In this document: one piece after another, positions 1 through 62,499 of the stretch
How the letters are laid out: every line of letters begins with the position of its first letter
Position numbering within the stretch: position 1 is the first letter of the stretch
Assembly (NCBI GenBank): GCA_002869225.1
Contig: PKTG01000130.1
Coordinates: forward strand, 8,621-72,620
Direction of reading: 5' to 3'
DNA from: Candidatus Muiribacterium halophilum
GTDB lineage: Bacteria; Muiribacteriota; Muiribacteriia; Muiribacteriales; Muiribacteriaceae
Length of the DNA stretch: 64,000 bases
Notes under the pieces: model-generated
Seen by the model: only the letters and a program-made list of their open reading frames with translations
What the model was told of the DNA's origin: nothing
Databases searched by the model: none
Program-made: the position numbers and the translations under genes

Positions 1-376
1 CTTTTTTTCCAGTATATGGATTGGGTGGAATCTCGTTAATATATATACGCTGTGATTTGATCTTATCTCGATCCGGGAAATCAACTATTTCTTTCCCTGT
101 AAGTTCTCTTTCCAAAGTCTGCAATGCAGTGAACCTAAGTGTCGTAGAATCAGTTTCAGTAAATGTAGGTATTATTGGATATTTTCCATGATCTCGATAA
201 TAAGCATCAAGTGCTGTTCTGATCTTTTCAAGTGTATTTATAGTCTTCTCTTCTCTGACATTCTGATATAAGGTCTCACCAAAAGGTATTGATGAATATG
301 CAAGAAGTGTTATAATAGCGGTAACAGCCATTAATTCGATTAATGTAAATCCTTTATTTCTAAAAAGATTAAACAT
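1..376 (-). CDS. Prepilin-type N-terminal cleavage/methylation protein (type II secretion pseudopilin G / pilin-like), runs off window start
   Basis: Not in the ORF track. Manual translation from ATG at 376 gives MFNLFRNKGFTLIELMAVTAIITLLAYSSIPFGE...LEKIRTALDAYYRDHGKYP, with the G|FTLIEL class III signal and a GspG-like 'ALDAYYxDxGxYP'. RBS GAGGTG upstream. Confidence 0.88.
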   Translation of the reverse strand, partial: MFNLFRNKGFTLIELMAVTAIITLLAYSSIPFGETLYQNVREEKTINTLEKIRTALDAYYRDHGKYPIIPTFTETDSTTLRFTALQTLERELTGKEIVDFPDRDKIKSQRIYINEIPPNPYTGKK

Positions 377-12211: not shown

Positions 12212-14038
12212 TTAACGTGCGATGATTATCTTTCCTTCTTTTTCAGTTGTCTCATTTCCAAAATCCGCAATTATTTTATAAATATAAATTCCGTTAGAAA
12301 TACTGTTTCCATGCTTATCAAATAGATCCCATATAGCCTCTGAGGATGTTCCTGTTATATCTATTGGTCTTATAGTCGTAACCAATTTTCCCCTCATATC
12401 ATAGACCTTTATCTTTACGCTCTGAGCAGGTCTTGTAAAAGAATAATTGAACTTAAACACGCCACCTCTGAAAGGATTAGGATAACTAATCGCTTTTGTA
12501 ATACTTCCTGTTGAAGAACTATCCTGTGCTCCTGTTGAAAAATCCCATGTTGTTGGGACAACCTGATTTCCATTTGAATCTAGACATCCTGATACACTTA
12601 CTCTATATTCTGTATTTGAATTAAAATTACTACTTGGATTTAATATGACAACATTTGATGTAGTAGCAGTGATAGTAGCAGGTACAGATGCACCAGTGTT
12701 TTTAACATTAAGCTGTATATTAGTTGAGGTAAAAGTTGATGTATTCATACTAGTACTAAATTCTACTCTTACTCCAGCTCCGAGATCTACGTTAGTTGAA
12801 TCTGGAGAAGGATATTTTGATACAACTGTTGGTAATCCGCTAGTACTTCCACCCGAAGTTGATAATGATGAGAATGAGAAATATGCATGTCTTTCTGAAT
12901 TATTCTCACCTGCATATACATAATATGCTCTATCAGTTCCGTCTGCAAAATCAAAATATTTAGCTCCATAAGGAGAAAATTCAGTAGAAAGATTATAAAC
13001 ATTTGCATCCCACGTAGTTAATGAATATTTTTTATATTTTGGATAAAGCGTACCAGATACATCTTCTACCCAAAAGGCATAAAGTTCACTACCAACTTCT
13101 ATAAGCTGAGGATAATTAATATTTCCGTTTATAGGACCCTGAACAATAGAATAATTCCAAGTTGTTCCAGCATCTGAGGATTTAACATATGCAATTTTGT
13201 TCACACCAGAAGTTATATCCTGGAACAACACATTGATATCACTACCCGACGCTTTCATAAATGGTAATGAATTAAAGATTTTTCCAGTAATATCCTGCTG
13301 AGTATTTGTAATAGCTGCTGCATCAGATCCGGACATGGATTCGTTCCAGTAATAACAGTTTAATATCTGATTGTATTCTCTTTCAAAACAAACATTATAA
13401 TCACCATTAGTTGTAATATCTAATGAAAGTGAGGATATAAGACTGTCATATGCAGATGTAAATGAGTTTGTAATATTCTCAATACTTCCTGATGAAGACA
13501 AAAGATCTGTTAATGAAGTTATACCTGCATAGGTCCCGCTTGCAAAATAAACGTTTGAAAATATTGGATTCCCTGTTGTAGATGCAATAAAAACAACACC
13601 AATACCTGATGAGTCGGCTTTTATTTTTACTTCACTACAATCATATGTGCTTTTTTCAGCATCACCTGGAAAAAATACAACTGGAGCACTAAAAGACATA
13701 CCATTATTAGATGATACAGAGTAGTATATTCTTTTATTTGGATCATTGGCATCTTTCTTTCCAGTAAAGAAAACATATATATTATTTCCGTTTTTAACAA
13801 TATCAGGTTCTCCAACAGAACTGAATAATGCTATTCTATAAGGGGTACTCCAGGTTAGAAAGTCACTTGTTCCTTTAACAAAATAGACAGAAGACCCATC
13901 TTTATAAACAACATAGGCATCTCCTGACTCAACTAATAGATTCATATCAGCTGCCTGTTGTGCATTTGTCTCCATTCTAATATCTGAAAAAACAATGATA
14001 TTTAGTAATATCAAGAAAACAAGAAAAATTCTTTTCAT
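12212..14038 (-). CDS. Secreted BNR/Asp-box + Ig-like (Big_5) protein with T9SS-CTD/FlgD-Ig-like C-terminus
   Basis: Start MKRIF at 14038 with RBS GGGGAG; SxDxGxxW Asp-boxes; PTVVSKYP...VEFSTSM Big_5; C-terminal YPNPF...IKVYDMRGKLV...WD...GIYIYKI. Confidence 0.85.
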   Translation of the reverse strand: MKRIFLVFLILLNIIVFSDIRMETNAQQAADMNLLVESGDAYVVYKDGSSVYFVKGTSDFLTWSTPYRIALFSSVGEPDIVKNGNNIYVFFTGKKDANDPNKRIYYSVSSNNGMSFSAPVVFFPGDAEKSTYDCSEVKIKADSSGIGVVFIASTTGNPIFSNVYFASGTYAGITSLTDLLSSSGSIENITNSFTSAYDSLISSLSLDITTNGDYNVCFEREYNQILNCYYWNESMSGSDAAAITNTQQDITGKIFNSLPFMKASGSDINVLFQDITSGVNKIAYVKSSDAGTTWNYSIVQGPINGNINYPQLIEVGSELYAFWVEDVSGTLYPKYKKYSLTTWDANVYNLSTEFSPYGAKYFDFADGTDRAYYVYAGENNSERHAYFSFSSLSTSGGSTSGLPTVVSKYPSPDSTNVDLGAGVRVEFSTSMNTSTFTSTNIQLNVKNTGASVPATITATTSNVVILNPSSNFNSNTEYRVSVSGCLDSNGNQVVPTTWDFSTGAQDSSSTGSITKAISYPNPFRGGVFKFNYSFTRPAQSVKIKVYDMRGKLVTTIRPIDITGTSSEAIWDLFDKHGNSISNGIYIYKIIADFGNETTEKEGKIIIAR

Positions 14039-14067
14039 AACACTCTCCCCTATTTCTGTTAGTTTTT

Positions 14068-14095
14068 TTATCGGTAAAGGGAGTAAATACATTAA
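14068..14095 (-). promoter_or_regulatory. Putative sigma28-like promoter
   Basis: Minus strand TTAA-N16-ACCGATAA, ~30 bp upstream of ATG at 14038. Confidence 0.55.
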
Positions 14096-52516: not shown

Positions 52517-55500
52517 TCACTGCTTCTTCGCTAGATTCTTCTCAATATATATAAGTGATCTTCTAGCATCTTTAGCATAAGATGAGTTAGGTTTCAATTC
52601 TATTACCCTGTTATACTCTTTCATCGATTCCTTAAGCATATTCTTTGTCTTGTATAATGAAGCAAGTTTAAAATGCGCCTCAACCAACTGATTATCAAGA
52701 GTTATTGCATTTCTATACTCTTCCATTGCCTCACCTTTCATATTGACCTTAAGGTTCTCATTATAGGCTTCAGCAAGTTCAAAATGTGCATATGCATTAT
52801 TGGTATCCCTTTCAACTGCTTTTTTTGCAATATCGATAGCAGCACTATAATCAGGTTCTTCTGATTCCAGTCCTTCCTTATCAAATAATCTTCTCATTGC
52901 AAAATAAGGCCATAGGAAATCAGGATCTATAGATATTCCCATCTTATATGCAGATACTGCTGCAACTTTATCATCAGTAGATAATGTTATTGTTGGAATA
53001 AGTTTAGTATTTGCATAACCGTAAACAAAGTAAGTCATTGCATCCCTATTTTGATTCTCGGCTTCTTCTTTAAATTTCTTCTTATAATCAAAGAACTTTT
53101 TCTCTTTCTCATCAGAATTATTAAATCTATCATAGAGAGCATCAACATAACATACAGCTGCATGTCCATCATATGGATCAAGTTCGATTATCTCATGATA
53201 TATCTCAGATGCTTTTGCATAATTTTTCATAACAACAAGAATCTCTGCATATTTATGCATGACATCAAGATTGTCCTCATCCTGAGATTTTATTATCTCG
53301 TATAAAGATGATGCTTTATCAAAATCTCCCATTTTAGAATAAGTGTCAGCAAGAAGCTCTCTATAGAAAAGATTATCTTTATCCATATCACATGCTTTTT
53401 CAAGCTCTGATAAAGCTTTTTCTTTAAGATTTGCTTCTGTAAAAGCACTTTCCGGTATCACTGAATATAAATACCCTAGTTCAAAGTGTACCATAGGATC
53501 TTTTGCATTTGATTCAACTTCTTTCTTATATTTTTCAATAAGCTCTGCAATATGATTTCCATCATATTCTTCGTTGAATATCTTTTCCCTATAGGAATCT
53601 ATTAATGTCTTTTTCAGATTCATATTAGTCTTATAAAATTCTGATGCTTTTTCAAGATATTTGATAGCTTTATCAAACTGTCCCAATCTAAAAGCAAGCA
53701 TACCGGCTTTGAGATTTACTTCTTTAAAGTTTTCAGAATCATCAATATCAAGGACTCTTTCATATTCAAAGAAAGCTTTACTAAATATTTCCTGAAGTTC
53801 ATATATTTTTCCAAGTCTATATCTTGCTTCAAGATAATTCGGATTTATCTCAATGACAGATTGATATTTCATCATCGCATTCTCTAGATCGCCATTTGCC
53901 TCAAATTCTCTTGCTGCAGCTAGATGTTTATTTATTTCCTTATCAGTCTCAGCTTGATGCATCTTATCAAAGAACCTTTTTGCCTGAGAATTGTCAGGTT
54001 GAAGATTTAAGAGTTTATCATAGATAGTCTTAGCTTCATTGAAATCCTGTTTTGCTTCAAGGATCTCTCCTAGTTTACTAAACGCATCTATAAATCCTTC
54101 ATCCATACTCACAGCAGTTCTCAACTCTTCAAGAGCTTTTTCTACATCACCCTTAAGCCAATATATTGAACCAGCCTGATAATGACCATGTACATCAGTA
54201 TAATCCTTTTTAATAAGTGAAGTGAATTCTTCTAATGCACTATCAAGATCATTCTTTGAAAGATAGATCATACCAAGATTATAAAAGGCTTTTGTAAAAT
54301 CTTCATTTTTCTGTTTTACAAGCTTATAATAAGCCATAGCCTGAGCCTTATCATTTCTTGCATTATATATCTCAGCAAGTTCAAAATAAGGTCTATAATC
54401 ATCAGGGTTCGTTTCGATGATATTTTCATATTCTTTTATTGCGTTTTCTTCCATTCCTCTTTCTCTATATACTTCAGCTGCTTTTAATCTTTCCTCGACT
54501 TCTTTCTTCTGTTCACTTGACGTGAATTCATTATAAAGTTCTTTGATATTTATATTATCCGGTTCAATATCTATAGCCAACTTTATTTCATTTACAGCTT
54601 CATCAAGCATGTTTTTGTCTTTATATACTTTAGCAAGTTCATAATAAGCTTCCCCACGGTTTTTGGAGAGTTTTTTAGCCTGTGAGAACTCATTCATAGC
54701 ATTGTTTATCATAATCTCATCCTTATAGGATTTTCCAATACTATAATAAAGTCTACCTAGTTCAAGATGAGCTTCATAACTATCAGGTTCGACTTCAATG
54801 ACCTGCTTAAACTCAAGAACAGCTTTATCTATCATTCCTGTCTTCTTGTATAGTTTACCCATCTCTATCCTTGCTTTGAGATTTGCTGGATCCGATGCAA
54901 CGACTTCCTTAAGCTTTTCAATAGCTTCATCGTTTTGAGCCTGAGAAGCTAATGTAAGTGCTATCTCGATCTTCGCTTCATATCTCATTGGAGCGATCTC
55001 AAGAACCTTCTTAAATAACTTCATAGCCTGTTCATACTGTTTGTCATCTCTATAGACTTTTCCAAGCATTATATAAGTATCAAGATTATCATTTTCATGA
55101 GCCAAAGCATTCTTTAGAGTCTTGACTGCTTTTTCCTTTGCACCTGTCTTCCAATACATTATAGCAAGTGAGTGATAATCCTCTATCTGACAATCAGGAT
55201 TTTTCACTAATTGTTCAAAGACTTCTATTCCCTTGTTATACATATTCTTTTCCAGATATATCTTGCCCAGCATTCCTGATAATTCAGGATATAATGGTTG
55301 AAGTTGTCTTGCTTTTTCGAAATACATAAGAGCTTCATCATAGTTTCCTTCCTTATAGAAAAGCTCTCCCATTCCAAAATAGACATCTGCTGTAGCTAGA
55401 CCGAGCTTAAGAGCTTTCATGAAGTGCTCTTTTGATTTTTTGAAGTTGTCTATCTCTCTATTTATAAATGCTATCTTATAATGGATATTTGGATTGTCTT

Positions 55501-58500
55501 CATCATTTTTAAGTATTCTATGATATATATCAAGTGCTTCATCAAGCATATCCTGCTTTTCAAAGATCTCAGCAATTTTATACCTGATCTCTCTAGCTCT
55601 TTTCTGATCAGCTCCACCAAGAAGCTTTTTATAAAAATCATATGCTTTATCAAGTATATTATTCTGATTATAATAATCCGCAAGTTTTTCAGTTATCTCA
55701 TCACTATCCTCATACTTCAGGATCTTTTCATAAGCTACTATAGCTCCATCTATATTTCCGCTTTCCTCAAGGAGTTCAGCGTATCTTTTGAGAATATCCG
55801 AATCCATATCTTTTTCAAGTAGACTTTCGAATAAAATTGAAGCTTCCTGCTCGTTTTCAGTCTTGATATAATAAATGAATAGACCTTTTAGTGCTTTAGT
55901 GTTATCCGGATCAAGCTCTAGTATTCTCTTATAAATATCTCCAAGTTCACTGTACATTCCCTCATTTTCGTATATCTGCGCGAGTTTTGAACAAACAAGT
56001 ACATCTCTTGGTTTAAACTCAAGATATTTTTCATAAAAGTTCATAGCTCTAGTCTCTTCACCCTGAGCCTGATAGATATTACCAAGTGATCTATAAACTT
56101 CTACGTTTGTTGGTTCCATCTCAAGTACTTTTTCATACTTTTCAATGGCTCTAAGATTCTGTTTTCTTTTTTCAAATATATTTGCAAATCTAAGTTGTAT
56201 CCTTACATCTTCAGGAGATTTTTCTTCTGCTTTATGGAGTTCATTTAGTGCTTCCATATATTTTTCTTTCTTAAGATATAGTTCGGCCATCTCAAGATGT
56301 ATTTCAGGATTATCAGGGAATTTATCCCCAACTTTTTTGTATTCTTCAAACGCTTCATCAAATTTTTCTTCAGAGAAGAACACTCTTCCTCTTTCAAGGT
56401 ACAGTTCAATATATTCAGGATGAATATCCTGAACTTCGTTTATAAAGTTTAGAGCTTCGATATTCATGTCTTTTTCTCTGTATAATTCAAGTACTTTTAA
56501 TACAATATCCTTATCATAGTTCTCAAGTTCAACTGCTTTTTTAAGGTAGTTAATACCTTCATCAAACTTCTTATTATTAAGACTTGCAAGACCCAGATTA
56601 AAATAAAGCTCAGAGTTTTCAAATTCAGTATCTCTAAGGGTCTGTAGATTTTCCATAGCTTCTTCAAAGTTCTTATCAGCTATTAGAACAAGTCCAAGAT
56701 ACCATACCGCTTCTCTGAACATATCATTAAGTTCAATTGCTCTTTTAAGACTGGTCTCTGCTTTCAGAAAGTTTTCAAGATGATAGTTTGCCTTACCCAA
56801 TAGGAACCATGAGTATTCATCACCTTTTTTATCTTCAAGATATCTTTCAATGTTTTCATTGACCTTATTATAACTTTCAAGTTTGTCATATATCTCAGAG
56901 ATCCTCTTGTATACTTCAACATAAGAAGGATCAAATTCAAGAGCTTTTTCAAAGTTTTCAAGAGCTTTTTCAAGCTCACCGTTCTTTTCATTTTCACTAG
57001 CTAATCTGAAATATATATCAGCATTTTCAGGGTCTAGTTTATTCGCTTCTTCAAAGTGATTTTTAGCTTCGTTTGCAAATCCAAGCTTGTCATATATAGT
57101 ACCAAGTCTGTAGTGAGCATTGGAATTATCAGGAGAAAGCGAGACAGCTGTCTTATAGTTTTCAAGTGCTTCTTCTAAAAGACCATTGGCAATGAAGATC
57201 TCCCCAAGCTCGACATAAGCCTCCATATAGGATTGATCAAGGTTTATTACTTTGTTAAACTCTTCTATCGCTTCGTTAATAAGATATTTCTTCATGTATA
57301 GTTTACCAAGTTCATAATGAGCTTTTACATTGTTAGGGAATATCTTAATAGCCTTCTGATAAGTCTCTATTGCATCTGGAAGGTTTTCCATTTCTGAATA
57401 AAGATCAGCTAGAGCATATATAACATCTACAAATTCAGGATTAAGACTTAATGCTTTCTTAAGATACTGAAGCGACATCTCTTTTTTATCAAGATTCTTA
57501 TATGCAATACCGAGTTCATATGCAAACAGTGAGTTATGTGGATTTCTAATAACTGCTTTTTCCAGTATATCTATAATATCCTGATATTTTCCTGCTTTTT
57601 TATACTGTCCTACGAGTTTATAAATAACATTTATATAATCAGGTTTTAATTCATGAGCTTTCTCAAATGAAGTAATAGCTTCACTTACCTTACCGTTCTT
57701 TTCATAGATCTGCCCAAGTTCGAAAAATACTTCTTCGTTTGTATTATCTATATCACGAGCTTTAATAAGATTTTGTTCTGCTTTTTCAAGTTCTCCCTGA
57801 TTCAGATATAAAGTACCTAATCTCTGATACGCCTCGACATAATCTTTTTCTATCGATATAGCAAGATTGTACTGTTCAATTGCTTCTTCATCTCTCTGAA
57901 GATTAAAATAGACTTCTCCAAGCTCAAAATGAATAAATGCATTCTGAAATTCTGTCTCAAGTGATTTTTTAAACTCATCAATAGCACTTTCATACTCATA
58001 CTTCTCATAATATAATTTACCAAGTTCAAAGTGGATCTTACTGTTATCAGGTTCGTATTCAACTACATTCTCAAAAGCTTTAACAGCTTTATCAGTCTCA
58101 CCTGCTGAAAGATAAAGACCACCAAGTTCGGTACTTGCACTTATTGTATATTCTTCGGATTCAAGAAGTTTTTCAAATTGTTTGATAGATTCTTCAAGCA
58201 TTCCCTGATTCTTATATGCTCTCCCAAGTTCAAAAATAGCTCCTTCAAATTCTTCATCCTGTATTAGGACTTTTCTGAAACATCCAATAGCTTTATCAAC
58301 TCTTCCCTTGACAATATTTAATTTACCAAGGTCATACCAGGCGTGTTTGTTTTTAGGAGATACTTCTATACATTTCTGCAAAAACTCAAGAGCTCTATCA
58401 AATTCCCCTTGCTTTTTATATATTATACCTGCATTATAAAGTGCATCAAAGTTTCTTGGTTCTATCTCAAGTATAAGCATATACTGTCTTGCAGCTTCAT

Positions 58501-59947
58501 TTAGTTTATCAAGAAGATCATAATTTTCAGCAAGAGCAAGATGATATCTTACCTCTTTTGGCTGAAGTATTGTTGCTTTCTTAAGATCTTTTACAGCTTT
58601 CTCATAATTTTCATTTCTCGAGTTTATGACTCCAGTATAATAGAAGGAATCAGAAAAGTTCTCATCAAGGTTCTGTACTTTTTCAAAGTATTCAAGTGAC
58701 TTAACATCGTTATTGAGATTAAAATAGGAGACGGCGATCTTAAAGAATACATCTATATCAGATGGTTCTATCTCAATAACTTTTTCAAAGTTTCTTATTG
58801 CCTGATGATAATCTTCTCTTTTTATTAGAATATCTCCAAGTCTCTTATAAGCTACTACGTAAGTGTTATCAAGTTTCAATACTTCCTCAAAATTTCTGGA
58901 AGCTTCATCATATTTACTCTGTGAGAAGTATAATTCTCCTAATTTGTAATATGCCTCTACATTATATTTATCAACATCAAGTATTGAACCATATTCTTTT
59001 ATTGCTTCACTATAGGACTTCTGATACTGATATATCTCAGCTAACTTTATATGAGCCTGAACATTTCTGTTATCTATCTCAAGAGCCTTCCTATATTCTA
59101 CTATTGCTGCTCCAACAAGATTATTTCGCATATAGACCTGAGCTAGAGCCATGTGAGCTTCTATATTCTTTCTATCCATATCTATTATCTTCTTAAACTC
59201 TTCCTGTGCACTCTCAATAAGTTCCATATTAAGGTATACAAAACCAAGTTTAAGTCTAGCTTTTATATTATCATTCTCAAGTTCGAGTATATCTCTGTAG
59301 GTCTTGACAGCATCTTCATATTTTTTCAGGTTATTGAAGACCTCTCCAAGTTCAAAATACACCCATACATTTTCAGTATTAAGTTCTATTGCTTTTTCAT
59401 ACATCGCAGATGCTTTGACTAGCTGTGTGGAATCATTATAAAGTCTTGCAAGTTCAACATAACATTCAGGAAAATCTTTATTTACTTCTACTGCTTTTTT
59501 CAGGAATATCTCTGCTTTCTCAGTTTCTTTATCTCTCTTATATAGTTTTCCAAGGTTAAAATTAGCTAAAGAATTCTCACTGTTTATATCTATTGTCTTT
59601 TCAAAATACACTTTAGCCATCTCAAACATCGAATTTTCTTCATAAAGAGATGCGAGCAGGAAGTTAGACTTTTCACTTAGAGGATTTATCTCAACAGCTT
59701 TTTTCAGATTATCCATTGCATCTTCAGTATTTTCTTTTCTATAATTTAAAGAACCTAGATAATAATAAGCTTCAAACTCATTTGGATATAATCTTGTAAG
59801 TCTGCTTGAAATATTTTTAAGCTTACGATCATTTCCTTCCTCATCATATATATGCATAAGTTCTACATATGCAGGTTTAAATGATGCATCTATCTTTATT
59901 GCTTTTTCAAGCATCTTTATTGCATTTTCTGTATTTTCCATTCTCAT
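52517..59947 (-). CDS. Giant TPR protein (2476 aa)
   Basis: Near-continuous 34-aa TPR units (A...LG..Y......A...Y.KA....P) over the whole length. Confidence 0.93.
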   Translation of the reverse strand: MRMENTENAIKMLEKAIKIDASFKPAYVELMHIYDEEGNDRKLKNISSRLTRLYPNEFEAYYYLGSLNYRKENTEDAMDNLKKAVEINPLSEKSNFLLASLYEENSMFEMAKVYFEKTIDINSENSLANFNLGKLYKRDKETEKAEIFLKKAVEVNKDFPECYVELARLYNDSTQLVKASAMYEKAIELNTENVWVYFELGEVFNNLKKYEDAVKTYRDILELENDNIKARLKLGFVYLNMELIESAQEEFKKIIDMDRKNIEAHMALAQVYMRNNLVGAAIVEYRKALEIDNRNVQAHIKLAEIYQYQKSYSEAIKEYGSILDVDKYNVEAYYKLGELYFSQSKYDEASRNFEEVLKLDNTYVVAYKRLGDILIKREDYHQAIRNFEKVIEIEPSDIDVFFKIAVSYFNLNNDVKSLEYFEKVQNLDENFSDSFYYTGVINSRNENYEKAVKDLKKATILQPKEVRYHLALAENYDLLDKLNEAARQYMLILEIEPRNFDALYNAGIIYKKQGEFDRALEFLQKCIEVSPKNKHAWYDLGKLNIVKGRVDKAIGCFRKVLIQDEEFEGAIFELGRAYKNQGMLEESIKQFEKLLESEEYTISASTELGGLYLSAGETDKAVKAFENVVEYEPDNSKIHFELGKLYYEKYEYESAIDEFKKSLETEFQNAFIHFELGEVYFNLQRDEEAIEQYNLAISIEKDYVEAYQRLGTLYLNQGELEKAEQNLIKARDIDNTNEEVFFELGQIYEKNGKVSEAITSFEKAHELKPDYINVIYKLVGQYKKAGKYQDIIDILEKAVIRNPHNSLFAYELGIAYKNLDKKEMSLQYLKKALSLNPEFVDVIYALADLYSEMENLPDAIETYQKAIKIFPNNVKAHYELGKLYMKKYLINEAIEEFNKVINLDQSYMEAYVELGEIFIANGLLEEALENYKTAVSLSPDNSNAHYRLGTIYDKLGFANEAKNHFEEANKLDPENADIYFRLASENEKNGELEKALENFEKALEFDPSYVEVYKRISEIYDKLESYNKVNENIERYLEDKKGDEYSWFLLGKANYHLENFLKAETSLKRAIELNDMFREAVWYLGLVLIADKNFEEAMENLQTLRDTEFENSELYFNLGLASLNNKKFDEGINYLKKAVELENYDKDIVLKVLELYREKDMNIEALNFINEVQDIHPEYIELYLERGRVFFSEEKFDEAFEEYKKVGDKFPDNPEIHLEMAELYLKKEKYMEALNELHKAEEKSPEDVRIQLRFANIFEKRKQNLRAIEKYEKVLEMEPTNVEVYRSLGNIYQAQGEETRAMNFYEKYLEFKPRDVLVCSKLAQIYENEGMYSELGDIYKRILELDPDNTKALKGLFIYYIKTENEQEASILFESLLEKDMDSDILKRYAELLEESGNIDGAIVAYEKILKYEDSDEITEKLADYYNQNNILDKAYDFYKKLLGGADQKRAREIRYKIAEIFEKQDMLDEALDIYHRILKNDEDNPNIHYKIAFINREIDNFKKSKEHFMKALKLGLATADVYFGMGELFYKEGNYDEALMYFEKARQLQPLYPELSGMLGKIYLEKNMYNKGIEVFEQLVKNPDCQIEDYHSLAIMYWKTGAKEKAVKTLKNALAHENDNLDTYIMLGKVYRDDKQYEQAMKLFKKVLEIAPMRYEAKIEIALTLASQAQNDEAIEKLKEVVASDPANLKARIEMGKLYKKTGMIDKAVLEFKQVIEVEPDSYEAHLELGRLYYSIGKSYKDEIMINNAMNEFSQAKKLSKNRGEAYYELAKVYKDKNMLDEAVNEIKLAIDIEPDNINIKELYNEFTSSEQKKEVEERLKAAEVYRERGMEENAIKEYENIIETNPDDYRPYFELAEIYNARNDKAQAMAYYKLVKQKNEDFTKAFYNLGMIYLSKNDLDSALEEFTSLIKKDYTDVHGHYQAGSIYWLKGDVEKALEELRTAVSMDEGFIDAFSKLGEILEAKQDFNEAKTIYDKLLNLQPDNSQAKRFFDKMHQAETDKEINKHLAAAREFEANGDLENAMMKYQSVIEINPNYLEARYRLGKIYELQEIFSKAFFEYERVLDIDDSENFKEVNLKAGMLAFRLGQFDKAIKYLEKASEFYKTNMNLKKTLIDSYREKIFNEEYDGNHIAELIEKYKKEVESNAKDPMVHFELGYLYSVIPESAFTEANLKEKALSELEKACDMDKDNLFYRELLADTYSKMGDFDKASSLYEIIKSQDEDNLDVMHKYAEILVVMKNYAKASEIYHEIIELDPYDGHAAVCYVDALYDRFNNSDEKEKKFFDYKKKFKEEAENQNRDAMTYFVYGYANTKLIPTITLSTDDKVAAVSAYKMGISIDPDFLWPYFAMRRLFDKEGLESEEPDYSAAIDIAKKAVERDTNNAYAHFELAEAYNENLKVNMKGEAMEEYRNAITLDNQLVEAHFKLASLYKTKNMLKESMKEYNRVIELKPNSSYAKDARRSLIYIEKNLAKKQ

Positions 59948-59956
59948 CTCTATTTT

Positions 59957-61528
59957 TTATATATGGAAATAAAGCTGTGTATCATTCTTCTCATCCAACT
60001 CTAAAAGCTGGTCTATAAGTTCTTTTACTTTTTTATTATCTTCTCCCTTATCAAGGTACATATAAGCTAGTTCCCAATAAGCACCCATGAAGGAAGGCTC
60101 AATTCTTATGATCTTTTTCAGGTTATCCACTATCAAAGAATAAGTTGGCTCTTCAACAGGATTTTCCGCAAGATATTTTAATGCATAAACATAATGAACT
60201 AATTTAAGATGATTATAAGTCTCAAGTTCTGTCTCTTTTTTAAGCTCAGCTATAACACTTTTTTTCTCGTTAGTATCAATTAATTTGTTTTTTAAAGTAT
60301 AATACTGCTTATAATAAAATGAGTTATTAGGGTTTACTTCAATCAATTTAAGATAATTTTCACAAGCATCTTCGAATTTAAGTTTGTACTGATAAATATC
60401 AGCTAGACTCGAAAGATACTTTTCAGAATAAGGGAAGCAACTTATTAGATTCTCATAAATAGCAAGAGACTTCTCATATAGATTACTTATTTTGTAGACT
60501 CTAGCAAGAGACTCCAGAACCTGAATAGAGTCCGGAGATATCTCAAGAGCTTTTTTATAATATTCAATAGCTTTTGGAAAATATAGATATTTCTGTAATA
60601 TCTTTCCATATTCGTATAAGACTTTTGTATCATCATGAGCGAGTTCTACAGCTTTTTTGATATTAATCATTATCTTATCTGTATCTCTTTCATCTCCATA
60701 AAGACTTAGAGCTTTTGAATAGTATAGATATGAATAAGGGTTTTCTTCGTCCAGCTTAATAGCTTTCTTCATATAATCGATGATCTCATCACCAGTGAAA
60801 AATTCCTGTTTCTGATTAAGATCAAAAATCAGGAAGTAAGAATCTATTATCTTATCTTTACCTTTTATAGTCTTATTAAGATTAGAAAAAGCCAGTTCTA
60901 ATCGTGCTTTTTCTGAAATATCTGAAAATTCAAAATAATAATAACAACAAGCAAGAGCAAAATATGTTAGTTTTGATTTACCATCATCAGCTTCCGCCAT
61001 AAACTTTTCAACTATGTTCTTATAGAATTTTTCCCTATCCGGAAAATCCTTATACAGCTCAACATATTGACTGATCATATCTCTATAGAGCTGAGCCTCA
61101 TGTTGAATCTTTATACTATCTCTATATGCTATTATTGCTTCGTCATGTTTTCCCTGTTCTAAAAAGATCCTTCCGAGGAGTCTTCTTGCATCAAAACCAT
61201 CATTTTTATATATAAGTGCCCTTTTGATCTCAAGTTCAGCATCAATATAAAGATGGTTTCTAAATAGTTTATATGCTTTTGTCAGATAAATTGAATACTT
61301 TTCTTCTTTTTCGTTAATATCCATTCCTTTAACAAGTATCTTTTCATTTTCGAGTTCTTTTTCCTGCGAAAGTGTCTTAGAACTCATAAGGTATTTGAGA
61401 GAAGCCTCCCCTATAGTCGCTATAAAGCAGACTTTGTTTATCCGATCAAAGAACTGACATTTCTCCTTGATACAGAATTCTTTTTGGCTTGAATTATCCG
61501 AGCCTAGAAATGGACATGACAAAAGCAT
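59957..61528 (-). CDS. TPR protein with N-terminal 4-Cys motif
   Basis: CPFL...FCIKEKCQFFD...C followed by TPRs; RBS GGAGG. Confidence 0.85.
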   Translation of the reverse strand: MLLSCPFLGSDNSSQKEFCIKEKCQFFDRINKVCFIATIGEASLKYLMSSKTLSQEKELENEKILVKGMDINEKEEKYSIYLTKAYKLFRNHLYIDAELEIKRALIYKNDGFDARRLLGRIFLEQGKHDEAIIAYRDSIKIQHEAQLYRDMISQYVELYKDFPDREKFYKNIVEKFMAEADDGKSKLTYFALACCYYYFEFSDISEKARLELAFSNLNKTIKGKDKIIDSYFLIFDLNQKQEFFTGDEIIDYMKKAIKLDEENPYSYLYYSKALSLYGDERDTDKIMINIKKAVELAHDDTKVLYEYGKILQKYLYFPKAIEYYKKALEISPDSIQVLESLARVYKISNLYEKSLAIYENLISCFPYSEKYLSSLADIYQYKLKFEDACENYLKLIEVNPNNSFYYKQYYTLKNKLIDTNEKKSVIAELKKETELETYNHLKLVHYVYALKYLAENPVEEPTYSLIVDNLKKIIRIEPSFMGAYWELAYMYLDKGEDNKKVKELIDQLLELDEKNDTQLYFHI

Positions 61529-61621: not shown

Positions 61622-61713
61622 TAGTTGTAGCTCATAAGGAATGATACCACAACCTGAGTTTTTATTGAAAAAAATACTACCGGTTCTCAACAACTTTTTT
61701 ACCTCTAACCAAC

Positions 61714-61742
61714 AAAAAAAGACACCTAAGTGTCTTTTTTTT
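61714..61742. terminator. Bidirectional terminator-like hairpin
   Basis: A7-GACAC-CTAA-GTGTC-T8. Confidence 0.75.
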
Positions 61743-61901
61743 GATGTTTGTCTAACGACAAAGTGTTTTTTCTTTGAAAAAAGATGACGAACTTACATTC
61801 GTGTGCTTTCTTTCAGAAAGAGTTTATTACACAACTGAAAAGTTGTCATCAGCATTTTTATGCTCATCGTAAGCAAAGCGAACCATCCGCAACAGAGTTG
61901 C
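61743..61901 (+). ncRNA. Candidate novel multi-branched structured RNA/ssDNA element (eight hairpins, nested linkers)
   Basis: Eight short hairpins at ~19-nt period with GATG/GTG linkers on the left and TAC/CATC linkers on the right; strand assigned only from G-U pairs. Confidence 0.5.
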
Positions 61902-61906
61902 TAAAC

Positions 61907-61940
61907 AAAAAAAAAGCCCTCCGAAGAGGGCTTTTTTTTT
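61907..61940. terminator. Intrinsic terminator after pdaD (bidirectional)
   Basis: A9-GCCCTC-CGAA-GAGGGC-T9; minus-strand cUUCGg loop. Confidence 0.88.
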
Positions 61941-62499
61941 AATGATATTCACAAAAAACTGCAGCTGCAATAACGGTCGTCCATCGACCTTTGGAATCTC
62001 CTTTAGCTGACTGTGTTATACTTTTTGAACGGACAATCTCATCTCTCATCTTCCATATACCTTTTCTTTCATTCCAATCCTGATCAACATCAAATTTTAT
62101 TCCAAGAGTTGATGCAAGCATTGAAGCAGCAAGGTCTTCAGCGTAATCACCAGCATGTTTTGCTTCCTGTCCGAAAGAATGATGTTCACTTAAATAACCG
62201 AAGTTATTTTTATCTTTTGGCAGTGCTATTCCTACAGATGCAGAGATTATCCTTCCAGGTTCATCTGTCGAGTTTTCACTCATGACACAGAAAGTTATCT
62301 CACCAGGTTTAAGATTTGCAACTCCTTTATCTCGTCCCATTATCTTACAATGTGGAGGAAATATACTAGATACTTTAACCAGATTATAACAAGCTATCTT
62401 AGCATCTCTTAACGCTTCTTCAAAAGAACCAAGTTTTTCTCTATGTACTCCAACTCCTTTTGTAAGAAATAATGCTTTAGGAACCCTGTTTGCACTCAT
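61939..62499 (-). CDS. pdaD: Pyruvoyl-dependent arginine decarboxylase
   Basis: FLTKGVG.H...L.SFE.ALRDA...[25 protein letters not shown]. Confidence 0.92.

What the first reader, a model, noticed from the sequence alone, without database searches (positions are those of the whole stretch)
61714..61940. Eight-hairpin array that folds into three stacked four-way junctions, bracketed by two terminators: candidate new structured ncRNA or ssDNA element
Seen (plus strand): GATG-[tttgtc taac gacaaa]-GTG-[ttttttc ttt gaaaaaa]-GATG-[acgaa cttaca ttcgt]-GTG-[ctttct ttc agaaag]-agtttat-TAC-[acaact gaaa agttgt]-CATC-[agcat tttt atgct]-CATC-[gtaagc aaa gcgaac, imperfect]-CATC-c-[gcaac aga gttgc]. The hairpins share no sequence but have similar length (13-17 nt) and a 18-21 nt period. 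Left linkers are complementary in nested order to right linkers (GATG/CATC, GTG/CAT, GATG/CATC, GTG/TAC), giving three consecutive four-helix junctions with no unpaired bases. Two linker pairs need G-U wobbles that work only on the plus strand. Both ends carry bidirectional terminator-like hairpins and there is no ORF. Inference: structure rather than sequence is selected. Options are a branched ncRNA or protein sponge, a leader for the downstream TPR operon, or an inverted cluster of REP-like 'tetranucleotide foot + hairpin' units. I do not recognise it as a known family.
Basis: partly seen in the sequence, partly recalled or inferred. Interest (0 to 1): 0.85.

Follow-up and report, generated by a model that had tools for sequence, protein, structure and literature searches.

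The report
Dispersed hairpin-string repeat, not a lone RNA gene
The eight-hairpin array is one copy of a repeat scattered about thirty times through this bacterium's genome, resembling the known REP/BIME palindromic repeats but built in an unusual way, so it is probably not a stand-alone RNA gene.

Summary
The array is not unique. The same genome holds 28 copies of its left half (H1-H4) and at least 30 right-half arrays on many contigs.

Each half is a fixed string of four different 13-17-nt palindromes joined by 3-4-nt tags: RTG on the left, CAY on the right. The right half is a diverged inverted copy of the left. That alone accounts for the nested linker complementarity.

Stems co-vary strongly between copies: 22 of 25 pairs changed on both sides, 95% of cells paired. 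Pairing is almost purely Watson-Crick, with no plus-strand G-U excess.

Copies lie in intergenic spacers. Left halves usually start just after a stop codon and right halves usually sit upstream of a start codon. A locus-specific hairpin often abuts the array.

I found no Rfam family, no match in 60 relatives, and none in plasmids or phages.

Verdict: a lineage-specific REP/REPIN/BIME-like family, that is, a new variant of a known kind. The mobilising enzyme and any function are unknown.

The parts
61714..61741 (+). H0: locus-specific flanking hairpin (12-bp stem, 4-nt loop, A-run/T-run arms, terminator-like on both strands). It ends 1 nt before the array.
   Evidence: A perfect hairpin of 5 bp or more ending within 1 nt of the array is seen in 14 of 28 copies, against 4% of 5000 random sites.
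61743..61827 (+). Left arm: GATG-H1-GTG-H2-GATG-H3-GTG-H4 plus a short tail. This is the most conserved module of the family.
   Evidence: nhmmer finds 28 copies plus 1 fragment. CM R1 scores this copy 91.1 bits.
61828..61906 (+). Right arm: TAC-H5-CATC-H6-CATC-H7 (tandem purine mismatches)-CATC-c-H8-TAAAC. It has the same layout as the left arm, read on the other strand.
   Evidence: Right arms of other copies match the left-arm model on the opposite strand at 42 and 38.5 bits.
61907..61940 (.). Flanking bidirectional terminator hairpin (15-bp stem including the A9/T9 runs). On the minus strand it directly follows the stop codon of the arginine decarboxylase gene.
   Evidence: Near-copies of this terminator lie at other loci, including window about 467-505.
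61939..62499 (-). Neighbouring gene: pyruvoyl-dependent arginine decarboxylase (PF01862, E 1.3e-61).
59957..61528 (-). Neighbouring gene: TPR-repeat protein. Its start is 215 nt from the array, on the opposite strand.

Best explanation
**What it is.** The array is one full-length copy of a lineage-specific dispersed intergenic repeat of the REP/REPIN/BIME kind.
- The unit is an 'arm' of about 85 nt.
- An arm holds four different short perfect palindromes in a fixed order, each preceded by a 3-4-nt tag (GATG/ATG/GTG).
- A full element is two diverged arms in inverted orientation. The right arm therefore reads hairpin-CAY.
- The left and right tags are then automatically complementary in nested order.

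**How it most likely works (inferred).** It is non-autonomous DNA that was spread as a discrete unit of about 85-190 nt, without target duplications. The hairpins form when one strand is single-stranded, during replication or in a transcript. They are kept perfect by selection for hairpin recognition, by template-switch correction of palindromes, or by both.

**Where copies survive.** They survive where they do little harm: directly after stop codons and upstream of start codons. There they are co-transcribed and would act as stacked hairpin barriers in mRNA 3' or intercistronic regions, as proposed for REPs.

**This copy.** It sits antisense between a terminator and the next gene's promoter region. 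It is probably not expressed as an RNA of its own.
For: **Shown**
- Copy number. There are 28 left arms plus 1 fragment by nhmmer, and 28 strong hits by CM. There are 30 right-arm hits of the B/C types. By eye, about 8 further right arms are of the window's type.
- Inverted homology. Right arms match the left-arm model on the opposite strand.
- Discrete unit. Among B-type copies, similarity stops at about -45 and about +195 to +213. The flanks are unrelated. The best pair is 96.4% identical over -6..187.
- Structure kept. 95.1% of 740 cells are paired. 22 of 25 pairs changed on both sides. 0 of 500 shuffles reach this, and slid partners give 44-56%. The eight hairpins are also recovered by RNAalifold on 11 other full copies.
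- Watson-Crick only. In H1, H3 and H4 (504 cells) there are 2 G.T and 6 A.C cells.
- Placement of left arms. 27 of 28 are free of ORFs of 100 aa or more. 17 of the 25 with a 5' ORF follow a same-strand ORF that ends -10 to 64 nt before the arm.
- Placement of right arms. 20 of 25 have a same-strand ORF downstream, and in 14 it lies within 130 nt.
- Empty sites in relatives. The glyA, serC and dnaA orthologues in three same-family genomes lack the element.
- Seen elsewhere. A 173-nt contig of another study's run matches 61697-61868 with 6 differences and 1 gap.
- Known kind. Tagged REPs lying downstream of ORFs, in inverted dimers and sometimes providing stop codons are described in PMC3733652 (abstract and passages read).

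**Inferred:** mobility, the single-stranded-DNA stage, and the barrier role in mRNA.
Against: - No cognate transposase was found. The one complete RAYT-like Y1 gene scores 64.5 bits against a cut-off of 80. It is flanked by unrelated inverted repeats. The second Y1 gene is truncated at the contig end and has a similar inverted-repeat motif upstream.
- No TnpB was found.
- No insertion polymorphism and no target duplication were seen, so mobility is inferred from dispersal alone.
- The tags are GATG/RTG, not GTAG or CGTC. Stems are 5-7 bp and AT-rich, unlike classical REPs.
- The overall orientation bias is modest. 18 of 28 left arms lie on the locally coding-rich strand.
- The outer tag pair shows some genuine co-change: GATG/CATC, GTTG/CAAC and, one column out of register, GTTTA/TAAAC. 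This hints at real long-range pairing beyond mere ancestry.
- Right-arm loops are 87% purine on the plus strand. That strand asymmetry would also suit an RNA role.
- There are no expression data at all.
Confidence: 0.8

Rival explanations
1. The family is a selected RNA-level cis element. As part of mRNAs, the left arm protects the upstream message from 3' exonucleases. In full copies, tag-tag pairing folds the insert into a compact branched structure that brings the upstream stop and the downstream start together. This overlaps with the best explanation rather than excluding it.
For: - Placement is aware of transcription. Left arms follow stop codons, and right arms sit 17-130 nt upstream of same-strand starts.
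- Among the 28 left arms, 11 have a same-strand ORF on both sides and 2 have an opposite-strand ORF on both sides.
- Right-arm loops are purine-rich on the sense strand, with many GNRA-type tetraloops in one hairpin.
- The outer tag helix is predicted by RNAalifold and shows co-change.
- REPs are reported as 3'UTR regulators. I saw this only in a search listing (bioRxiv 10.64898/2026.03.23.713779).
Against: - There is almost no G-U in the stems: 2 of 504 cells. A.C cells outnumber it (6), and do so again in the tags, 12 against 4. That is not the usual signature of RNA selection.
- Many loops are 3 nt long.
- 8 of the 25 left arms with a 5' ORF, this window's copy among them, lie beside an opposite-strand gene.
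- Arms occur singly, so tag-tag pairing cannot be obligatory.
- The inner tag helices are not predicted.
Confidence: 0.2
2. This is the reader's headline: a single new structured ncRNA, or a protein sponge, that folds into three stacked four-way junctions and is expressed from this locus.
For: - Tag complementarity in this copy is perfect, or wobble-compatible, on the plus strand.
- Three of the four tag helices have predicted probabilities of 0.56-0.90.
- No Rfam family reaches its threshold, so it would be new.
Against: - It is a multi-copy dispersed family.
- Terminator hairpins abut both ends with 0-1 nt of room. No plus-strand sigma-70-type promoter-like site was found between 61400 and 62100.
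- The proposed fold is 8.5 kcal/mol above the MFE, and one helix has a probability of about 0.002.
- The RNA folding z-score is only about -2.
Confidence: 0.04
3. The array is a double-stranded DNA array of protein-binding inverted repeats, for example for nucleoid or topology proteins as proposed for BIMEs. It would act on DNA, not through hairpins.
For: - Each bead is a perfect inverted repeat, and pairing is strictly Watson-Crick and symmetric between the strands.
- BIMEs and REPs are described as binding sites for several proteins. I saw this only as the start of an abstract in a search listing (PMC2817692).
Against: - The four palindromes of an arm differ in sequence, so one dimeric protein cannot read them all.
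- Stems change sequence freely between copies while keeping complementarity. This argues for pairing rather than sequence readout.
- The loops show strand asymmetry.
Confidence: 0.08

Closest known systems
Tagged REP sequences and their inverted doublets (REPINs), as surveyed by Di Nocera et al. 2013 (PMC3733652; abstract and passages read). REPIN papers were seen only as search listings (PMC3116915, PMC3337134).
   Same: - A short palindrome with an unpaired 3-4-nt tag at one end.
- Units paired in opposite orientation so that larger folds are possible.
- Extragenic, mostly downstream of ORFs, and sometimes supplying the stop codon. In one copy here the upstream frame stops in the H1 loop, and in another it ends at the start of the arm.
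- Lineage-specific families.
   Different: - The tags are GATG/ATG/GTG, not GTAG or CGTC.
- Stems are 5-7 bp and AT-rich.
- The repeated unit is a fixed string of four different palindromes, all in one orientation, rather than one palindrome.
- Each module occurs about 30 times rather than hundreds.
- The RAYT-like gene of the genome is flanked by other repeats.
BIMEs of enterobacteria (mosaics of REPs with conserved linkers). Known to me from recall and from the start of the abstract of PMC2817692 in a listing.
   Same: - A mosaic, modular build.
- Modules are gained, lost and swapped between copies. The window's right arm shares some beads with type A copies and others with type C copies.
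   Different: In BIMEs, neighbouring REPs alternate in orientation and are variants of one sequence. Here the four beads within an arm are co-oriented and unrelated in sequence.
BOX elements of Streptococcus pneumoniae (boxA-boxB-boxC modules). Recalled only, not tested.
   Same: A modular intergenic repeat with predicted stable secondary structure and variable module content.
   Different: The sequences are unrelated, and the modules there are 45-59 nt rather than 18-21-nt tag-plus-hairpin beads. No comparison was run.
Non-autonomous derivatives of IS200/IS605-type elements moved by HUH Y1 transposases. From recall, plus the start of the abstract of PMC6006769 in a listing.
   Same: - No terminal inverted repeats of any length and no target duplication.
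- Subterminal hairpins next to short tags, which is what such enzymes read on single-stranded DNA.
   Different: - No matching transposase gene carries these ends.
- There are eight hairpins rather than one per end.
- Cleavage and binding are untested.

Membership tests
REP / tagged REP super-families (PMC3733652) | Small palindromic stem-loop unit, 20-40 bp | tested here: inconclusive
   Beads are 13-17 nt, or about 18-21 nt with the tag. That is at or below the lower size limit.
REP / tagged REP super-families (PMC3733652) | Unpaired terminal tag fitting GTAG or CGTC | tested here: not met
   The tags are GATG, ATG, GTG, ATA and GTTA on the left, and CATC, CAY, TAY and CAAC on the right.
REP / tagged REP super-families (PMC3733652) | Extragenic, predominantly downstream of coding regions | tested here: met
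   27 of 28 left arms lie outside ORFs of 100 aa or more. 17 of the 25 with a 5' ORF start -10 to 64 nt after a same-strand ORF end.
REP / tagged REP super-families (PMC3733652) | Many units paired in opposite orientation | tested here: met
   By eye, about 22 of 28 left arms are followed by a right arm. Right arms match the left-arm model on the other strand.
REPIN/RAYT system | A RAYT gene flanked by the same repeats | tested here: not met
   There are two Y1_Tnp hits. The complete one scores NF047646 at 64.5 bits, under the cut-off of 80. It is flanked by an unrelated 11-nt inverted repeat that also forms 3 other pairs 212-265 nt apart. The truncated one has a similar motif upstream.
MITE | Terminal inverted repeats plus a target-site duplication | tested here: not met
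   Only the 3-5-nt outer tags are inverted. I saw no duplication at the ends of the 96.4%-identical pair or of the other B-type copies.
Any Rfam family | Score at or above the family's gathering threshold | tested here: not met
   61 sub-threshold matches, the best 33.3 bits against a threshold of 100. They centre on the two terminator hairpins.
Integron attC array | Sites clustered in one co-oriented cassette array next to an integrase | tested here: not met
   Copies lie on 23 or more contigs beside housekeeping genes such as dnaA, glyA and serC. I did not search for an integrase.

The most novel reading that the evidence does not exclude
The arrays either grow, or home, by hairpins. One possibility is that the element inserts exactly at the 3' foot of a hairpin. 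The other is that it makes one, by copying the neighbouring sequence in inverted form through a template switch or snap-back synthesis. Each bead would then be the fossil of an earlier boundary hairpin. The TAAA loops of H1 and H3 could be former stop codons.

That would be a way of building and spreading structured DNA that has not been described for bacterial repeats.

The clues:
- A perfect locus-specific hairpin of 7 bp or more ends within 1 nt of the array in 7 of 28 copies, against 0.5% of random sites.
- Its left arm is often the last codons plus the stop codon of the upstream gene.
- At dnaA and glyA the left-arm sequence is shared with a relative that lacks the right arm.
- A 3' flanking hairpin is also enriched: 4 of 24 copies against 1.2% of random sites.
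Probability: 0.12. Interest if true: 0.8.

Novelty: new variant of a known kind. Interest (0 to 1): 0.42.

Why it matters
**A caution for scans like this one.** The case shows how a striking 'designed-looking' RNA fold can be the by-product of an inverted pair of palindromic repeat arms.

**What the family offers.** It is a compact natural data set on how short hairpins are kept perfect. There are about 230 hairpins in one genome, with many double changes and almost no wobble or mismatch intermediates. This bears on whether compensatory change in palindromes comes from selection or from template-switch mutation. That idea was put forward for RNA hairpins in PMC8794818, of which I saw only the listing and the start of the abstract.

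**The open question.** The locus-specific hairpins that overlap stop codons and abut the arrays are unexplained. They could point to a hairpin-directed insertion or growth mechanism.

**For annotation.** The family should be masked as a repeat rather than called as an sRNA.

Tried and rejected
**Searches that found nothing useful**
- Rfam at E up to 10. Only sub-threshold, terminator-driven matches.
- BLAST of the array against 40 relatives, and the CM against 60 relatives (3 of the same family in other genera, the rest of the same phylum). 0 matches outside the window's own genome. This means 'not found in those searched', not absent.
- An exact 19-nt degenerate pattern in genome contigs gave 13 single, unrelated hits. 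In metagenome contigs it gave 106 stretches. All of those I inspected belong to two unrelated sequences or are chance hits, and CM R1 found 0 matches in the first 80 loci.
- Plasmid and phage collections, distant mode: no match.
- Expression: no RNA holder listed. Only contigs could be laid.
- TnpB (PF07282): none in an 89%-complete genome.

**Analyses that led nowhere**
- Naming the organism. Two atlas look-ups were uninformative. Only a type IX secretion sorting domain in the window hints at the Bacteroidota-like group.
- GC skew as a proxy for replication strand. It simply follows the coding strand here, so it cannot separate replication from transcription.

**Ideas considered and dropped**
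- Mini-ORFs formed by ATG tags with TAA in the loops. The loop lengths vary, so the frames are not kept.
- An integron attC array. The copies are dispersed.
- The RAYT-like gene as the mobiliser. It has its own, different ends.

**Tool problems**
- One script was killed by the sandbox and was rerun in a simpler form.
- Supplementary files of PMC3733652 were not seen. They list REP families and might include a GATG-tagged one.

Full report
**1. The observation**

There are eight short hairpins between 61747 and 61901. On the left they are separated by GATG, GTG, GATG, GTG. On the right by TAC, CATC, CATC, CATC.

H7 is imperfect, with two central purine mismatches. A 12-bp A/T-armed hairpin ends at 61741, 1 nt before the array. 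A 15-bp A9/T9-armed terminator starts at 61907, right after TAAAC.

Both neighbouring genes are on the minus strand:
- a TPR protein, 59957-61528
- a pyruvoyl-dependent arginine decarboxylase, 61939-62499, whose stop codon touches the right terminator

Folding this copy gives a modest signal as RNA: z -2.0 on the plus strand and -2.3 on the minus strand. The signal is clearer as DNA: z -3.56.

The hairpins alone give -28.0 and the MFE is -38.1. One of its four tag helices has essentially no predicted probability. No Rfam family comes near its threshold.

**2. It is a repeat family**

BLAST of the array against the window's own 2.93-Mb, 148-contig genome found about 30-40 partial matches of 65-85% identity. 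The genome has 32.8% G+C and is 89% complete.

- A profile of H1-H4 finds 28 copies plus one fragment.
- A covariance model of the same arm finds the same 28, at 64-103 bits.
- An iterated profile of the commonest right-arm types finds 30 arrays. By script, 14 follow a left arm and 16 stand alone. Three of those 16 (on C77, C116 and C47) in fact adjoin left-arm sequence.
- By eye, about 8 more right arms are of the window's own type or 'type A'.

Genome-wide, runs of at least four abutting perfect hairpins number 37, against 2 in a shuffled genome.

The consensus is: gene stop, then a locus-specific hairpin, then GATG, [TTTGGC taaa GCCAAA], ATG, [TTTTTTC nnn GAAAAAA], (G)ATG, [ATGAGC taaa GCTCAT], GTG, [CTTTCn nnn nGAAAG], GGTT(T)AAAC. 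A right arm of other beads joined by CAY/TAC/CATC follows, ending in TAAAC.

**3. Why the tags are complementary**

The left-arm model also hits right arms on the opposite strand, at 42 and 38.5 bits. Read that way, a right arm is GATG-bead-GATG-bead-GTA-bead-RTG-bead. That is the same layout as a left arm.

A full element is therefore an inverted pair of diverged arms, and nested tag complementarity follows automatically.

On 11 other full copies:
- The three tag helices are paired in 73%, 85% and 88% of cells. Local hairpins are paired in 83-100%.
- Of the 110 tag cells, 85 are Watson-Crick, 4 G.T, 12 A.C and 9 other. There is no plus-strand wobble signature.

RNAalifold keeps only the outermost tag helix (3 bp) plus the eight hairpins. 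That outer pair does show co-change: GATG/CATC, GTTG/CAAC and, one column out of register, GTTTA/TAAAC. A closing helix in a single-stranded form therefore remains possible.

Arms also occur alone, and beads are swapped as whole modules between copy types. The junction fold cannot be the defining feature.

**4. Hairpins are kept, and kept perfect**

On the model-fitted alignment of 30 arms:
- 95.1% of 740 cells are paired.
- 22 of 25 pairs changed on both sides, giving 108 such cells against 27 in shuffles. 0 of 500 shuffles are as high.
- Slid partners give 44-56% paired.

Two caveats apply. The rows are paralogues, so they are not independent. And the alignment was fitted to the structure.

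Intermediates are almost absent. In H1, H3 and H4 (504 cells) there are 2 G.T and 6 A.C cells. In two copies H2 is replaced by a different hairpin of the same size between the same tags.

This is the pattern expected of DNA-level palindromes. Alternatively, both arms may be changed in one step by template switching. That was proposed for RNA hairpins in PMC8794818, which I saw only as a listing. It is not the usual pattern of an RNA evolving through wobble pairs.

Against a purely symmetric DNA reading, right-arm loops are 87% purine on the plus strand, as RRA triloops and GNRA-like tetraloops.

**5. Where copies sit**

- 27 of 28 left arms are outside ORFs of 100 aa or more.
- Of the 25 with a 5' ORF on the contig, 17 follow a same-strand ORF that ends -10 to 64 nt before the arm. 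The other 8 face an opposite-strand gene.
- The upstream genes include dnaA, glyA and serC.
- Of 25 right arms with a 3' ORF, 20 have it on the same strand, and in 14 it lies within 130 nt, often with a ribosome-binding site just after TAAAC.
- Only 18 of 28 left arms lie on the locally coding-rich strand. Because a full element is pseudo-symmetric, orientation statistics are weak evidence.

The window's copy belongs to the minority with opposite-strand genes on both sides. It is boxed in by terminator hairpins that abut it. This argues against a transcript of its own on either strand.

**6. The abutting hairpins**

A perfect hairpin ending within 1 nt of the first tag is present at 5 bp or more in 14 of 28 copies, and at 7 bp or more in 7 of 28. 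Random sites give 4.0% and 0.5%.

Its left arm often contains the last codons and the stop codon of the upstream gene. Only 5.1% of 2353 ORFs of 150 aa or more have a stop-overlapping hairpin of 7 bp or more.

At the 3' side, 4 of 24 copies have a hairpin of 7 bp or more starting within 6 nt, against 1.2% of random sites.

Orthologues of glyA, serC and dnaA in three same-family genomes carry neither the element nor such long hairpins. At dnaA and glyA, one relative shares the left-arm sequence but not the right arm.

Whether the element targets hairpins or creates them is open.

**7. Spread and range**

Similarity among B-type copies ends sharply at the element, with unrelated flanks. The best pair is 96.4% identical. 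I saw no target duplication. The median pairwise identity of left arms is 0.69, and 2 of 378 pairs reach 95% or more.

The family was not found:
- in 60 relatives
- by pattern in two public contig collections
- in plasmids or phages

Two runs of one bioreactor study hold the locus. One of them may be the source of this DNA. A sediment run of another study has a 173-nt contig matching 61697-61868 with 6 differences and 1 gap. Two of those differences fall in the loops of H3 and H4, and the run also holds a second family copy.

No RNA run is listed, so there is no evidence on expression either way.

**8. Who moves it?**

The genome has two Y1-transposase hits. The complete one (325 aa) resembles REP-associated tyrosine transposases but scores below the curated cut-off. 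It is flanked by its own 11-nt inverted repeat, which also forms three other pairs 212-265 nt apart. The truncated one has a similar motif upstream.

That is a separate small family, of the 'TIR-associated' kind described in PMC3733652. There is no TnpB. The mobiliser of the hairpin strings is unknown.

**9. Comparison and verdict**

In kind, this is a REP/REPIN/BIME-like element:
- tagged palindromes
- inverted doublets
- extragenic position after ORFs
- lineage-specific (PMC3733652)

It fails two membership features of the described tagged REP super-families: the tag consensus, and a cognate flanked RAYT. It also differs in architecture:
- four unrelated, co-oriented beads propagated as one arm
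- very short AT-rich stems
- abutting locus-specific hairpins

I did not find such an element in print. The searches were made, and PMC3733652 contains no 'GATG'. Its supplements were not seen.

I therefore file it as a new variant of a known kind. The stand-alone ncRNA reading is very unlikely. Interest is moderate.

Noticed in passing
Own genome, contig C17:5960-6955 (locus L033 901-1878, minus strand). Also C14:101537/101802, C16:17767/17979, C31:2433/2654 and C82:6-206.: A 325-aa RAYT-like Y1 transposase gene is flanked by an 11-nt inverted repeat. The same repeat forms three gene-less pairs 212-265 nt apart, which looks like a small TIR-type element family with miniature derivatives. A second copy of the gene is cut off by a contig end.
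   Followed up: partly
Own genome: C17:44445-44499, C87:12384-12462 and C88:2629-2685. Also C17:17354-17411 and C88:2474-2535.: There are two further, different hairpin-string repeats: three or four GC-richer 5-8-bp hairpins joined by TTTTAT/TTTTAC, or by CA/GTAAAA. The genome therefore holds several such families.
   Followed up: no
Locus L063 (own genome C73:3718-6807) 1183-1214, 1614-1672. Also the flanks of other B-type copies.: B-type copies are embedded among short heptamer tandem repeats (units such as CCCAAAC, TCACGCT, CTATTCA). Some of them also share a conserved 5' extension of about 45 nt.
   Followed up: partly
Window about 467-505 (own genome C86:9087-9125). Also C44:27276-27311 and C45:9967-10007.: The right-hand terminator of the finding (A-run, GCCCTC stem, T-run) recurs at 85-92% identity at several other gene ends. 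Only the loop differs much.
   Followed up: partly
Window 61869-61883, and the matching module in other copies (e.g. own genome C77, C99, C117, C123).: Bead H7 is a conserved module with two Watson-Crick pairs, two tandem purine-purine mismatches, two more pairs and an AAA loop. The outer pairs co-vary between copies, so the mismatch looks like a kept feature rather than decay.
   Followed up: partly
Window 12212-14092 (minus strand) and 52517-59947 (minus strand).: A 626-aa protein carries a type IX secretion C-terminal sorting domain. A 2476-aa ORF lies directly downstream of the TPR gene. The first is the only hint I found to the organism's wider group.
   Followed up: no
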